This document shows, piece after piece, positions 3,399 to 61,555 of a DNA stretch of 64,000 bases. The notes beneath the pieces were generated by a model, which did not search any database, was not told where the DNA came from, and saw only the letters and a list, made by a program, of their open reading frames with translations. Position 1 is the first letter of the stretch; every line of letters starts with the position of its first letter. Source of the stretch: a phage; the sequence record OZ346158.1, one strand, 5' to 3'. The translations under genes and the position numbers were made by a program.

Positions 3399-3770
3399 AT
3401 GTTAGTAAAAGGTACCCATACAGTCAAACAACGTATTGAAGTTGAGATTGATGATTGTGAGCTGAAGCATATTTTACGGTCATGCTCCAACGTTTTGCTC
3501 CTTAGTATTCTCCAGGAGCGAGCGGAGAACGAGTTCTTAAATGCACTGGCAGGCCGCCCTGGTGATTTCTGTGTGCGTAAGCGTGGTGACAACAAGTCAT
3601 GGCTGTGGGAGATAGACGCAGAATGGGATTACCATAAAAATGAGGGTATAGATGAACCTATTCGTGAATTGACGGACAACGAGGTTCAGATGTACAATGA
3701 AGTTTGTCAGTGGGCAAAAAGTCAACAAACTTATCTTGATCCTTGGTGGATGATCGAAAATAGTCGTTGA
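3399..3770 (+). CDS. hypothetical protein
   Basis: ORF with SD agaggaggtagg before ATG. Confidence 0.55.
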   Translation: MLVKGTHTVKQRIEVEIDDCELKHILRSCSNVLLLSILQERAENEFLNALAGRPGDFCVRKRGDNKSWLWEIDAEWDYHKNEGIDEPIRELTDNEVQMYNEVCQWAKSQQTYLDPWWMIENSR

Positions 3771-3846: not shown

Positions 3847-4101
3847 ATGAAAATTACTCTGAAGCCAGAATGCGTTGAAAATGACCGAGCTTTTAAAGAT
3901 TGCACAATCGGTGCAATTTATGAAGCAGAGTTTTGTGAGAACCCTTTGGTAAAAGCCCTTCTGGAAGAAGGGGCCCCTTTATCACAAGAAGAGATCGATG
4001 AGCTGGAAAACTCAGCACAGTGCCTTACCTTTAAAGATGATGAAGGAGACTCTGTCTGGTGCACTGTTAATGAAGTCGTTTTTGTAAAACCTGAACATTA
4101 A
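3847..4101 (+). CDS. hypothetical protein (paralog of 4165-4437)
   Basis: Shares D(R/S)AF(K/R)DCT and KDD(E/Q)GD motifs with next gene. Confidence 0.55.
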   Translation: MKITLKPECVENDRAFKDCTIGAIYEAEFCENPLVKALLEEGAPLSQEEIDELENSAQCLTFKDDEGDSVWCTVNEVVFVKPEH

Positions 4102-4104
4102 TAC

Positions 4105-4133
4105 TTGACAACAGCGATAGGACCTAATACAAT
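4105..4133 (+). promoter_or_regulatory. sigma70-like promoter TTGACA-N17-TACAAT
   Basis: Hexamers and spacing read directly. Confidence 0.5.
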
Positions 4134-21890: not shown

Positions 21891-22310
21891 ATGAACATTA
21901 AATCTAATAATCCGGCATATAGCTTTGATAACGCTTTTTGTCACGGTCCGGCGGCGAAAGGATTCGAAATCGATGGTAAACTAGTTATTGTCAATGTTGA
22001 CGGGGAAGAGGTTGCAGTATATCCGGTGGCAGACGTTAAAAGCCGTCTACAATGCCGCATCGATGTTACCGCCTACCAGCTTGATCCGGTCCGGGTAGTT
22101 GCCCTGGTCCTGGAAGAAGAAATTAAAGCAATGCACCACAGCAACAAGTTTATTGGTGACGCTCAAGATAATATGAAGGTGTGCCGCCATAAAGTTAATG
22201 AAGTGCTTAAAGAATATGGCTTTAAAGATCTGATGATCAAACGTGAGGAAAAATTCCGCTACCGTAACGACCTGGCAAATCGGATTTTTGAAATATACGA
22301 ATCATTATAA
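21891..22310 (+). CDS. hypothetical protein
   Basis: SD taagaggtaaaaac. Confidence 0.55.
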   Translation: MNIKSNNPAYSFDNAFCHGPAAKGFEIDGKLVIVNVDGEEVAVYPVADVKSRLQCRIDVTAYQLDPVRVVALVLEEEIKAMHHSNKFIGDAQDNMKVCRHKVNEVLKEYGFKDLMIKREEKFRYRNDLANRIFEIYESL

Positions 22311-22328: not shown

Positions 22329-22356
22329 AAGGGGCTTAAAGGCCCCTTTCTTTTTG
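22329..22356 (+). terminator. intrinsic terminator closing the + strand block
   Basis: aaggggc-ttaaag-gcccctt followed by TCTTTTTG. Confidence 0.7.
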
Positions 22357-23123
22357 TCTGCTCTTCTCCTACCATAAACGGCCCTACCTGGCAAGTGGAA
22401 TAATTGACTAGCCATCAATCCCACATACTGTACAAATATACATGGAAAATAACTATTGCATAATTTTTCATTGTGTGGTAGCAAGTCCATTTTTACCCGT
22501 TTTCTCTCCCAAAAGTGCACGTAATGCCGCTATTGCACAAATTTTAACCTGATGCACATCTCCAATATCTTGTCAACAACTAAAAATCTTTATAAGTCAT
22601 ACACTTACACAGCATCGAAAGCGTGTTCTACGCGAAAAATCGAGTATAACTATAGCCGCCAGATCTCAGAATTCACGTACGCACGCCATTCTATAGCCTG
22701 CAAAGTATTTATTCCAACCACAGAATAACGGAATAGTCAATACCTGCATAAAATAATTATTCGTGTAAACTGCATAACATAAATCAGCTCAGGTGTCAAC
22801 ATTTTTCGTAAACAGTCCGAAATTATCACGATGAGTTATCATAAACAGAGAAATCTTTAGTCGTCTAATGTTTACTGTACATTACTATACTGACTGGAAT
22901 CATTAGATGACTAATACAATAGAACAAATTAATAATGTAATTATTTTACCTGTAACAATAAGGCAACTATGCAAACGAATGGCATGGCGCGACGGAGTCG
23001 CGACATAATATAAAAGCAGTAACCATCACCCCCGTGATAGTTTGTCTGCAAACTATTAATCAGATCATAGTTGCCTTGTATTTAGTTAATCATGACATAA
23101 CAAGCAAGGCAACTATAGATATA

Positions 23124-23381
23124 CTAAACCATAGCTTCAAAAGGAGTCATGAACGAATAAACGGCATCATCATCTGCTTCAGGGAATGCTCCCAAAGACT
23201 TCATATCTGAACCCTTGACAAATACAAGGTTTTGATCAAAGGCTTCTTGGGGGTCAATCCGATACATATTTCGTAGAATATCGCTTACCTCCTCATCAAG
23301 AGGTGAGTATGCTGTGCACGTTTTTCCGATCAAGCTTTGAGAATCAGGGTATCCACCTGAAGTTTTAAAATAAACAATCAT
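23124..23381 (-). CDS. hypothetical protein
   Basis: ORF at end of - strand block. Confidence 0.5.
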   Translation of the reverse strand: MIVYFKTSGGYPDSQSLIGKTCTAYSPLDEEVSDILRNMYRIDPQEAFDQNLVFVKGSDMKSLGAFPEADDDAVYSFMTPFEAMV

Positions 23382-60742: not shown

Positions 60743-60817
60743 GCCCTGTTAGCTTAGTGGATAAAGCAGCGGCCTTCTAAGCCGTTGACACTGGTTCGAG
60801 TCCAGTACGGGGTGCCA
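60743..60817 (+). tRNA. tRNA-Arg (anticodon UCU)
   Basis: Hand-folded cloverleaf: acceptor gccctgt/acggggt, anticodon loop cuUCUaa, T-loop ttcgagt, encoded CCA. Confidence 0.85.
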
Positions 60818-60821
60818 AATT

Positions 60822-60908
60822 GGGGAGTTATCCCGTAGAGGTAGCGGTGTAGACTGTAAATCTATTGTCATTGCGACTCGGGTGGTTCGACTCCACCACT
60901 CCCCACCA
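60822..60908 (+). tRNA. tRNA-Tyr (anticodon GUA), long variable arm
   Basis: Acceptor ggggagt/actcccc, anticodon loop ctGTAaa, T-loop ttcgact, CCA. Confidence 0.85.
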
Positions 60909-61022
60909 AATTTATATTTTTAGATGCATAAATAATACAGATAATGGCATTGATATTTATCGTCGTTTATACTAGTCACTAACTGCTCGAAAATCAGTGT
61001 CATTATCAGTATAATTTATAAA

Positions 61023-61113
61023 GGAGGGTAGGGAGCAATGGTGCTCAAGCGGTCTTGAAAACCGTCCCGTTGAGGATGACTCGATGATGGTTCGATTCCA
61101 TTACTCTCCGCCA
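61023..61113 (+). tRNA. tRNA-Ser (anticodon UGA), long variable arm
   Basis: Acceptor ggagggt/actctcc, anticodon loop ctTGAaa, T-loop ttcgatt, CCA. Confidence 0.8.
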
Positions 61114-61211
61114 CATTGTTGACCTTGTAATTAAGCGAAAGCCGGAAGCAGAACCGGATTATCAAATGTTACAGTCGTCATCGCCGACTAGCAACATGGT
61201 CAACATACTGA

Positions 61212-61308
61212 GCTAGGTAAGCCCTTTGGCAAGGGCGAGGATTTTTAATCCTGAAAATAGACGAGGTAGTCGTTGAATACATAGGTGGTTCGATTCCATC
61301 ACCTAGCA
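61212..61308 (+). tRNA. atypical tRNA-like gene (possible tRNA-Lys UUU with about 30-nt variable region)
   Basis: Perfect 7-bp acceptor gctaggt/acctagc, D-arm gccc..gggc, T-loop ttcgatt; anticodon arm imperfect; 97 nt. Confidence 0.4.
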
Positions 61309-61315
61309 CCTTTTT

Positions 61316-61388
61316 GCTGATGTAGCACAATCGGTAGTGCAATTGATTTGTAATCAATAGGTTGTAGGTTCAAGTCCTGCCATCAGCA
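61316..61388 (+). tRNA. tRNA-Thr (anticodon UGU)
   Basis: Acceptor gctgatg/catcagc, anticodon stem attga/tcaat, loop ttTGTaa, T-loop ttcaagt. Confidence 0.85.
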
Positions 61389-61392
61389 CCAA

Positions 61393-61467
61393 GGCCCTGT
61401 AGCTGGAAGGTTCAAGCAAGCGACTCATAATCGCCAGACGGTGGTTCAATTCCACCCAGGGCCACCA
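61393..61467 (+). tRNA. tRNA-Met/Ile2 (anticodon CAU)
   Basis: Acceptor ggccctg/cagggcc, anticodon loop ctCATaa, T-loop ttcaatt, CCA. Confidence 0.85.
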
Positions 61468-61478
61468 AATAGTAAATA

Positions 61479-61555
61479 CTCCGCGTAGCTCAGCTTGGTA
61501 GAGCGCCTGATTTGGGATCAGGAGGTCGAGTGTTCGAATCACTCCGTGGAGACCA
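61479..61555 (+). tRNA. tRNA-Pro (anticodon UGG)
   Basis: D-arm tagctcagcttggtagagc, anticodon loop ttTGGga, T-loop ttcgaat, CCA. Confidence 0.85.

What the first reader, a model, noticed from the sequence alone, without database searches (positions are those of the whole stretch)
22357..23123. Convergent 0.8-kb non-coding gap with AACTAT/ATAGTT repeat cluster
Both flanking gene blocks terminate here. The gap is AT-rich, ORF-free and holds aaggcaactat at 22960 and 23105, its complement catagttgcc at 23066, a palindrome atagtttg-tctg-caaactat at about 23033-23056 and a gcgac-gga-gtcgc hairpin at about 22988. Such clustered half-sites suggest a protein-binding locus (termination zone, partition or packaging site) or an unannotated small RNA.
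Basis: seen in the sequence. Interest (0 to 1): 0.5.

Follow-up and report, generated by a model that had tools for sequence, protein, structure and literature searches.

The report
Terminator hairpin cluster beside phage genome end
The repeat cluster is real: it is the surviving left half of a strongly conserved hairpin-rich element, most likely a pair of facing transcription terminators, that in all related rV5-like E. coli phages sits 95-330 bp from the physical end of the genome, and in this sequence a unique 6.4-kb gap in the DNA has cut it in two and removed that genome end.

Summary
The window is a Vequintavirus (rV5-like E. coli myophage). Five AACTAT/ATAGTT words lie in 176 nt, against 0.69 per kb in the window (P about 2e-7).

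The gap is truly non-coding. It is the left arm of the 2.3-2.6 kb "non-coding" region already noted in rV5. In relatives that region holds the 459-bp direct terminal repeat (DTR), i.e. the physical genome ends.

The repeated words are the stems of hairpins:
- A complete minus-strand intrinsic terminator, T(-), at 23049->23005.
- The 5' half of a plus-strand terminator, T(+), at 23102-23116.
- A 12-bp hairpin, 23067-78 with 23105-16.

In relatives these make a ~152-nt palindrome with perfect 18-nt arms. Stems are invariant in 20 genomes, while loops vary and one takes a 33-nt insertion. FV3 lacks the element, so it is dispensable.

The window's right edge (23120/23127) is a junction found in no other record. 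It removes 6,386 bp, including half of T(+), the DTR and about 17 genes. This is either an assembly or record artefact or a defective genome.

Best reading, with confidence 0.5: a transcription barrier next to the packaging end. Ordinary in kind and modestly interesting.

The parts
22329..22356 (+). Intrinsic terminator of the + gene block (AAGGGGCTTAAAGGCCCCTT followed by TCTTTTTG). It equals t164 of rV5.
   Evidence: -13.1 kcal/mol. Listed as t164 in rV5 Table S4. Annotated as a terminator in EdH4 and Murica.
22357..22856 (.). Non-coding spacer that varies more than the flanking genes. Its GC skew is opposite to that of the adjacent + block.
   Evidence: 7-23 variable columns per 50 nt, against 2-10 in the neighbouring CDS. 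No conserved ORF. GC skew -0.23 over 22357-22950.
22857..22914 (+). Conserved hairpin H2: arms TTAGTCGTCTAATG (22857-22870) and CATTAGATGACTAA (22901-22914). It has 14 bp with one G.U on the + strand (C.A on the - strand) and a 30-nt loop.
   Evidence: I1; alifold z = -5.3 on the + strand; arms invariant in 21 genomes while loop and flanks vary.
22960..22970 (+). Copy a1 of the 11-mer AAGGCAACTAT. It can pair with a'1 across 94-96 nt.
   Evidence: (I2). One relative (EduardKellenberger) breaks the pairing without compensation.
22969..22988 (+). 20-nt direct repeat ATGCAAACGAATGGCATGGC, copy 1. Copy 2 lies 231-339 bp to the right in relatives and is missing here.
   Evidence: (D2). FV3 has deleted everything between the two copies.
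22988..23002 (.). Short GC hairpin CGCGAC-GGA-GTCGCG, invariant in relatives.
23005..23049 (-). T(-), a complete minus-strand intrinsic terminator. On the - strand it reads GCAG-ACA-AACTATCAC-GGGG-GTGATGGTT-A-CTGC followed by TTTTATATTAT. Its U-tract is the left arm (23002-23019) of an 18-nt perfect inverted repeat.
   Evidence: -20 kcal/mol, z = -3.5. (I1). The few changes seen weaken single pairs of the stem or fall in internal loops.
23037..23056 (.). Palindrome ATAGTTTG-TCTG-CAAACTAT. Its left half belongs to the T(-) stem. The palindrome itself is not conserved.
   Evidence: broken by A->T in 8 of 20 relatives.
23067..23078 (.). Copy a'1, ATAGTTGCCTTG. It pairs perfectly (12 bp) with 23105-23116.
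   Evidence: (I5). The core 11-mer 23067-23077 is invariant in 21 genomes. The spacer takes a 33-nt insertion in rV5, LL12 and phita32.
23102..23116 (+). Copy a2 inside AAGCAAGGCAACTAT, the 5' half-stem of the plus-strand terminator T(+). The 3' half (ATAGTTGCCCTGCTT followed by TTATATTATG) is absent from the window.
   Evidence: I6; intact T(+) in WalterGehring: -23.6 kcal/mol, z = -5.1. A terminator feature is annotated at this position in Murica.
23120..23127 (.). Junction unique to this genome. Homology to the left ends at 23120, followed by a 6-nt filler ATACTA (23121-23126). Homology resumes at 23127, which lies 6,386 bp further on in relatives.
   Evidence: The junction was not found in five other collections.
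23124..23381 (-). 85-aa ORF (87 aa in WalterGehring, bas51_0151). Its last codons and stop codon come from the junction filler.

Best explanation
The AACTAT/ATAGTT cluster is a set of paralogous hairpin stems. Together they form a compound, palindromic pair of face-to-face Rho-independent terminators at the inner edge of the vequintavirus terminal non-coding region.

Proposed mechanism in intact relatives:
- RNA polymerase running rightward, after escaping the strong t164 terminator behind the last + gene, meets a weak hairpin and then T(+). T(+) is a 15-bp stem with a 10-nt loop followed by CUGC-UUUUAUAUUAU.
- Polymerase running leftward out of the DTR side meets T(-), a 13-bp interrupted stem followed by the same U-tract.
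- The region that holds the 459-bp DTR, where terminase cuts and the ends are duplicated, is thereby shielded from transcription arriving from the left. Anything transcribed out of that region is stopped before it runs antisense into the early genes.

In this window T(-) is intact. Because of the 6.4-kb junction it now lies about 75-120 nt downstream of the minus-strand gene block. T(+) is cut through its loop and cannot form.

Shown: the hairpins and U-tracts, their stability, conservation of stems against loops, and their position relative to the mapped DTR.
Inferred: that termination actually happens and that insulating the DTR is its purpose.
For: - Hairpin plus U-tract on the correct strand. 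T(-) was found by the scan and folds at -20 kcal/mol, z = -3.5. T(+) in WalterGehring folds at -23.6 kcal/mol, z = -5.1, and a terminator feature is annotated at that position in Murica.
- Location between convergent transcription units. LL12 and EdH4 place the 459-bp DTR in this non-coding region, and the two mappings fall on the same alignment columns.
- The cluster is the most conserved stretch locally: 5, 0 and 2 variable columns per 50 nt, against 7-23 in the rest of the gap. It is present at 96.6% identity or more in almost all of the 118 records that match it over at least 80% of its length (the few lower values reflect the 33-nt insertion).
- Variation avoids stems: 6 of 91 stem columns vary against 21 of 102 other columns, Fisher P = 0.006. 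The T(+) loop varies freely. A 33-nt insertion sits in a loop. In EPFV3 an A->G change repairs the single A.C mismatch of T(+).
- The stems are copies of one unit: a 34-nt module repeated at 60 nt with 76% identity (D1). This explains why the same word recurs.
- FV3, an isolated phage, lacks the element. That fits a non-essential back-stop terminator.
Against: - No transcript data exist for any vequintavirus, so no 3' end has been observed.
- These are not the primary terminators of the gene blocks. t164 lies 650 nt upstream. In relatives T(-) is about 1.7 kb beyond the last minus-strand gene, so it is unclear what it terminates.
- No convincing promoter feeds either terminator.
- There is no compensatory double substitution. 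The stems simply do not vary.
- The two U-tracts form a perfect, invariant 18-nt inverted repeat, and 150 nt including some unpaired stretches is about 100% conserved. That is more constraint than two independent terminators need.
- The T(+) stem pairs slightly better as minus-strand RNA (G.U) than as plus-strand RNA (A.C).
Confidence: 0.5

Rival explanations
1. DNA-level palindrome used in concatemer processing. The ~152-nt element with perfect 18-nt arms extrudes or snaps back as a DNA hairpin next to the DTR. It would help nicking or priming when the single DTR of a concatemer junction is duplicated, as proposed for the hairpin end seen in T7.
For: - As single-stranded DNA the intact element folds at -39 kcal/mol, z = -11. 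As RNA it folds at -78 to -80 kcal/mol, z = -9.5 and -7.5.
- The 18-nt arms are invariant.
- It lies 95-328 bp from the DTR's left edge, with degenerate 15-16-nt tandem arrays in between.
- By my recollection, T7's terminal repeat is likewise flanked by short-repeat arrays. A review passage in PMC4281155 recalls the T7 hairpin intermediate.
Against: - FV3 lacks the whole element yet is a propagated phage.
- The distance to the DTR is not fixed, ranging from 95 to 328 bp.
- There is no homologous element in Phapecoctavirus or Septuagintavirus, although the neighbouring gene is 87-92% identical.
- The mismatches differ by strand, so a symmetric cruciform would be imperfect.
Confidence: 0.2
2. 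Regulatory RNA reading. The four alternating 11-mers (a1, a'1, a2, a'2) give mutually exclusive pairings: 1:2 plus the 3:4 terminator, against a 2:3 anti-terminator. The element would act as an attenuator-like switch or as the structured 3' end of a non-coding or antisense RNA. The convergent transcripts would overlap by about 150 nt.
For: - Alternative 12-15-bp pairings are all available.
- On the minus strand all three hairpins are perfect, counting G.U pairs.
- H2 is a further invariant hairpin.
- The GC skew of the gap is that of a minus-strand 'sense' region.
Against: - There is no gene downstream of T(+) to regulate, no leader peptide and no Rfam family.
- No conserved promoter was found.
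- The a1:a'1 pairing is broken without compensation in one relative.
- No expression data exist.
Confidence: 0.15
3. Array of binding sites for a DNA-binding protein, such as small terminase, a phage repressor-like factor or an origin-binding protein. ATAGTT(G/T) would be the half-site.
For: - The word is strongly enriched and locally unique.
- The 11-mers themselves are invariant.
- GTAAAC words and tandem arrays nearby look like protein-site arrays.
Against: - The sites alternate in orientation, with gaps between neighbouring words of 4, 10, 26 and 66 nt.
- The 26-nt spacer takes a 33-nt insertion in rV5, LL12 and phita32.
- The best 'operator-like' palindrome is broken in 8 of 20 relatives.
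- The motif is not found elsewhere, as a regulon would require.
- The skew switch at the gap coincides with the change of transcription direction, as rV5's authors concluded.
Confidence: 0.1

Closest known systems
The 'non-coding' box between genes 163 and 164 of phage rV5 (Kropinski 2013, PMC3606486) and the LL12 and EdH4/HdK5/Gotham terminal-repeat notes (PMC6658697, PMC6563267, PMC7471380)
   Same: It is the same locus. The window's gap is 90-98.5% identical to the left third of that region in 120 records. LL12's authors state that the 459-bp terminal repeat lies in a non-coding region between two convergent transcripts.
   Different: Those papers expected bidirectional terminators here but did not locate them. 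rV5's Table S4 lists only t164. The hairpin cluster, its palindromic architecture and its conservation are not described there. This window also lacks the DTR-bearing part.
Rho-independent terminators, including face-to-face or bidirectional terminators between convergent operons
   Same: Stable stem-loops are directly followed by U-rich tracts on both strands, between convergent units. The A-tract of one is the U-tract of the other.
   Different: There are two separate hairpins about 90 nt apart rather than one shared hairpin. They are embedded in a 152-nt palindrome with extra copies of the stem word. They lie far (0.65-1.7 kb) from the nearest coding genes. They are conserved well beyond what stems alone require.
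T7-group concatemer junction (terminal repeat flanked by short-repeat arrays; hairpin intermediate; transcription pausing at the junction). This comparison rests on my own knowledge plus the summary in PMC4281155.
   Same: There is a short non-permuted DTR, arrays of short degenerate repeats beside it, and a large inverted repeat close to one DTR boundary.
   Different: There is no sequence relationship. The host is a myovirus with host-RNAP-type promoters. The element is dispensable in FV3, and its spacing to the DTR is variable. No functional data exist.

Membership tests
Rho-independent (intrinsic) terminator | Stable stem-loop of roughly 5-15 bp | tested here: met
   T(-) folds at -20 kcal/mol. 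T(+), intact in relatives, folds at -23.6 kcal/mol. Both lie well below their shuffles. In the window only T(-) is complete.
Rho-independent (intrinsic) terminator | U-rich tract immediately 3' of the stem on the transcribed strand | tested here: met
   UUUUAUAUUAU directly follows the CUGC closing segment of both hairpins.
Rho-independent (intrinsic) terminator | Lies downstream of a transcription unit reading into it | tested here: inconclusive
   It is a convergent zone. However, t164 precedes T(+) by 650-800 nt, and no promoter feeding T(-) was identified in relatives. In the window T(-) follows the 85-aa ORF by about 75 nt, but only because of the junction.
Rho-independent (intrinsic) terminator | RNA 3' ends map to the U-tract | not testable with these tools
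   No vequintavirus transcriptome was found in the literature held.
Packaging / concatemer-processing signal of a DTR phage | Adjacent to the physical terminus | tested here: met
   In relatives the cluster ends 95-328 bp left of the DTR. In the window the DTR is absent.
Packaging / concatemer-processing signal of a DTR phage | Indispensable and present in every member that packages the same way | tested here: not met
   FV3 retains the DTR-left marker but lacks the cluster.
Packaging / concatemer-processing signal of a DTR phage | Bound or cut by terminase | not testable with these tools
   This needs biochemistry.
Iteron-type origin or protein-site array | Three or more same-orientation repeats at regular, helical-phase spacing | tested here: not met
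   The copies alternate in orientation and the spacing is irregular. One spacer accepts a 33-nt insertion.
Transcription attenuator | Mutually exclusive terminator and anti-terminator pairings | tested here: met
   a'1:a2 (12 bp) competes with a2:a'2 (15 bp), and a1:a'1 competes with a'1:a2.
Transcription attenuator | A sensor (leader peptide, ligand or protein site) and a regulated downstream gene | tested here: not met
   There is no gene on the + strand beyond T(+) in relatives, no conserved small ORF and no riboswitch or leader family in Rfam.
Known RNA family (Rfam 15) | Match at the gathering score | tested here: not met
   Only tRNAs at 60.7-61.6 kb reach the threshold. The best sub-threshold hits in the gap have E = 0.5-3.4.

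The most novel reading that the evidence does not exclude
The invariant ~152-nt palindrome with four alternating 11-mers could be an active part of how a myovirus with a short fixed DTR makes its ends. One possibility is a DNA snap-back that primes duplication of the 459-bp repeat. Another is a switchable barrier that lets transcription into the DTR only when packaging starts. If the 23120/23127 junction is real, this genome would be a natural mutant lacking the DTR. That would imply that end recognition lies elsewhere.
Probability: 0.12. Interest if true: 0.65.

Novelty: new member of a known kind. Interest (0 to 1): 0.3.

Why it matters
Vequintaviruses are among the most commonly isolated E. 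coli phages and are used in therapy and biocontrol cocktails. Their 2.4-kb terminal non-coding region has so far only been labelled 'non-coding'.

Three things would be useful to people working with them:
- Its left arm carries a conserved terminator pair or palindrome 95-330 bp from the DTR, together with a hot spot for indels. This matters for anyone engineering these phages, mapping their termini or annotating their transcription units.
- An FV3-type deletion removes the element, so it can be lost without killing the phage.
- For this particular sequence the practical point is a warning. The record lacks 6.4 kb, including the packaging ends, so it should not be taken as a complete, packaging-competent genome without checking the reads.

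Tried and rejected
- Coding. Seven ORFs of 27-58 aa lie inside the gap. Most, including the longest, are disrupted in several or nearly all of 11 relatives; three short ones stay open in 9-11. None shows codon-position bias.
- Known RNA. Rfam at the gathering and E-value thresholds gives nothing. There are no tRNA or tmRNA genes here.
- Promoters. Only 9/12 sigma-70 matches occur, at about the shuffle rate. A rV5 'late'-type GGTAAAATA lies on the - strand at 22942-22950, but its upstream bases vary in relatives and it has no -35 element.
- Palindrome as operator. It is broken in 8 of 20 relatives.
- Origin of replication. The skew switch coincides with the change of gene orientation, as rV5's authors found. 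There is no iteron geometry.
- MITE-like insertion (18-nt inverted arms, 20-nt flanking direct repeats, an 'empty site' in FV3). The arms are 13 and about 46 nt away from the direct repeats, the right flank is variable, and no other copy exists, so this was not pursued.
- Fixed spacing to the cut site. Rejected, because the distance ranges from 95 to 328 bp.
- Homologues in other genera. The 139-aa neighbour gene is 87-92% identical in Phapecoctavirus and Septuagintavirus. The DNA after it is unrelated, although it is also rich in inverted and tandem repeats.
- Covariation. None could be obtained, because the stems are invariant.
- Transcriptome literature. None was found.
- Source of the junction. 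There was no match in IMG/VR, metagenome contigs, GTDB genomes, E. coli genomes or plasmids.

Full report
WHAT THE WINDOW IS

The region and its flanks match about 120-220 phage records, depending on the query, at 90-99% identity. Almost all are Vequintavirus, the rV5-like E. coli myophages. The window is collinear with phage WalterGehring over positions 1-25015, apart from one break described below. No record is identical. The best matches are 98.6% to the left of the gap and 99.0% to the right.

CHECK OF THE OBSERVATION

Every motif is present.
- AAGGCAACTAT is at 22960 and 23106 on the + strand, and at 23067-23077 on the - strand.
- The 12-mers ATAGTTGCCTTG and CAAGGCAACTAT (23067-78 and 23105-16) are perfectly complementary.
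- The palindrome is at 23037-23056.
- The GC hairpin is at 22988-23002.

The clustering is far beyond chance. Five AACTAT/ATAGTT words fall in 176 nt, against 0.69 per kb in the window (P = 2e-7). This is the densest such window in the 64 kb.

The gap is non-coding. Most ORFs inside it, including the longest (58 aa), are disrupted in several or nearly all of 11 relatives, and none shows codon-like substitution. GC content is 36%, against 43% for the window.

In every relative the non-coding stretch is 2.3-2.6 kb long, not 0.8 kb. It is the 'non-coding' box drawn in the rV5 paper. That paper expected bidirectional terminators here but did not find them.

Three later reports place a non-permuted terminal repeat of 458-459 bp in this genus: EdH4/HdK5, LL12 and Gotham. 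LL12's authors place it explicitly in this non-coding region. I confirmed that EdH4's record begins and ends with a 459-bp repeat. Its boundaries and LL12's PhageTerm coordinates fall on the same alignment columns.

From left to right, the layout in relatives is:
- the t164 terminator;
- about 600 nt of spacer;
- the motif cluster;
- a hypervariable stretch with 15-16-nt degenerate tandem arrays that have a TGTAAAC core;
- the DTR;
- about 1 kb of very conserved non-coding DNA;
- the minus-strand genes.

The cluster ends 95-328 bp before the DTR.

THE JUNCTION

Homology to all relatives stops at 23120 and resumes at 23127, which lies 6,386 bp further on in WalterGehring. Six unmatched bases (ATACTA) sit in between.

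The missing piece holds:
- the 3' half of one hairpin;
- the tandem arrays;
- the DTR, which is not found anywhere in the window;
- the conserved right arm;
- about 17 small genes.

The filler supplies a new stop codon for the 85-aa ORF. No record in the phage collection has this junction. It is also absent from IMG/VR, metagenome contigs, GTDB genomes, E. coli genomes and plasmids.

A random 6.4-kb deletion would include the termini only about 5% of the time, and it would remove the packaging ends. I therefore think an assembly or record artefact, or a defective genome, is more likely than a viable deletion mutant. My estimate is about 0.6. I cannot settle this without the reads.

So 'both gene blocks terminate here' is true of the sequence. 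On the right side, however, it is a consequence of this junction.

ANATOMY OF THE CLUSTER

The repeated word forms the stems of hairpins.

On the minus strand, GCAG-ACA-AACTATCAC-GGGG-GTGATGGTT-A-CTGC is followed directly by TTTTATATTAT (23049->23005). It folds at -20 kcal/mol, z = -3.5.

In relatives, AAGCAAGGCAACTAT-N10-ATAGTTGCCCTGCTT is followed by TTATATTATG on the plus strand. It folds at -23.6 kcal/mol, z = -5.1. A terminator feature is annotated at this position in Murica. The window keeps only its 5' half (23102-23116).

The two U-tracts are the arms of a perfect 18-nt inverted repeat. The whole intact element is therefore a ~152-nt palindrome:
- RNA: -78 and -80 kcal/mol, z = -9.5 and -7.5;
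- single-stranded DNA: -39 kcal/mol, z = -11.

A 34-nt module (AACTAT-N10-ATAGTTGCC...) is duplicated 60 nt apart. This explains why the same word recurs.

Its 14-bp arms are invariant while its loop and flanks vary.

CONSERVATION

The cluster is the most conserved stretch in the neighbourhood. It shows 5, 0 and 2 variable columns per 50 nt. The rest of the gap shows 7-23, and the adjacent gene shows 2-10.

Almost all of the 118 records that match it over at least 80% of its length carry it at 96.6% identity or more; the few lower values reflect the 33-nt insertion. Nothing outside the genus matches.

In a 21-genome alignment:
- Variable columns are 6 of 91 in predicted stems, against 21 of 102 elsewhere (Fisher P = 0.006).
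- The T(+) loop varies freely.
- rV5, LL12 and phita32 carry a 33-nt insertion in the loop between 23078 and 23105.
- EPFV3's A->G change repairs the only mismatch in T(+).
- No compensatory double change exists.

The ATAGTTTG/CAAACTAT palindrome is broken in 8 of 20 relatives, so it is probably incidental.

FV3 has lost everything between two 20-nt direct repeats (ATGCAAACGAATGGCATGGC). That is the whole palindrome. The element is therefore dispensable.

INTERPRETATION

I take the cluster to be a pair of facing intrinsic terminators. They would form a transcription barrier between the early gene block and the DTR/packaging zone (confidence 0.5).

Three things fit RNA or DNA hairpins better than spaced protein sites: the stem-versus-loop pattern, the loop insertion and the U-tracts. 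Dispensability in FV3 and the variable distance to the DTR argue against an essential packaging signal.

Several points remain against the terminator reading:
- The terminators are far from any gene.
- No promoter is seen feeding them.
- The invariant 18-nt arms and the about 100% conservation of unpaired stretches suggest an extra constraint.
- No transcript data exist.

The rivals are:
- a DNA palindrome acting in concatemer processing, as in the T7 hairpin model, at 0.2;
- an attenuator-like or non-coding RNA element using the alternative a1:a'1, a'1:a2 and a2:a'2 pairings, at 0.15;
- protein-binding sites, at 0.1.

COMPARISON AND NOVELTY

The locus is known as an unannotated non-coding region that carries the DTR. 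One hairpin is annotated as a terminator in one record. The palindromic architecture, its conservation and H2 are, as far as I could find, undescribed. In kind, however, they are ordinary: terminators and repeat-rich DNA beside a genome end.

Related genera keep the neighbouring 139-aa gene at 87-92% identity. The DNA after it is unrelated, though similarly rich in repeats.

Interest is modest at 0.3. The main practical result is that this genome lacks its terminal 6.4 kb.

Noticed in passing
window 23120-23127: A junction unique to this genome. 6,386 bp present in all relatives is absent, replaced by a 6-nt filler ATACTA. The missing piece includes the 459-bp DTR, the tandem arrays, about 1 kb of conserved non-coding arm and about 17 small genes. 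It may be an assembly or record artefact, or a defective genome.
   Followed up: yes
window 22857-22914: A second conserved hairpin, H2, with 14-bp arms that are invariant in 21 genomes while its 30-nt loop and flanks vary. It pairs fully only as plus-strand RNA (one G.U). Its function is unknown.
   Followed up: partly
L005 2419-3377 (WalterGehring 95418-96376); absent from the window: The right non-coding arm of relatives is 97-100% conserved. It carries an 11/12 sigma-70 promoter with a TG extension on the minus strand (L005 3250->3223), followed by terminator-like hairpins at 3200-3188 and 2536-2517. It is a candidate ~0.7-kb non-coding RNA.
   Followed up: partly
window 22357-22950; L005 2419-3377: The GC skew of each non-coding arm is opposite to that of the adjacent gene block. 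The gap is at -0.23 beside a +0.1 block, and the right arm is at +0.11 beside a -0.10 block. It looks as if both arms were 'sense' in the direction away from the DTR.
   Followed up: partly
L007 (FV3) about 3650-3700; L010 (JES2013) 3862-4117: The stretch between the cluster and the DTR is an indel hot spot. FV3 has deleted about 230-340 bp (depending on the relative compared) between two 20-nt direct repeats. V18 lacks the second repeat. The copy number of the 15-16-nt TGTAAAC arrays differs between phages. rV5, LL12 and phita32 carry a 33-nt loop insertion.
   Followed up: partly
window 61212-61310: Within the tRNA cluster at 60743-61555, ARAGORN calls a 99-nt 'tRNA-???' with a four-base anticodon (atcc). 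Rfam scores it as tRNA at only 35.5 bits.
   Followed up: no
window 21891-22310: The 139-aa gene just left of the gap is 91-92% identical in protein sequence in Phapecoctavirus and 87% in Septuagintavirus. In several of those records it also sits next to the record ends. The non-coding DNA after it is unrelated.
   Followed up: partly
plasmid record CP057073.1: A 137,565-bp 'plasmid' of an E. coli isolate from cattle faeces is an rV5-like phage genome.
   Followed up: no
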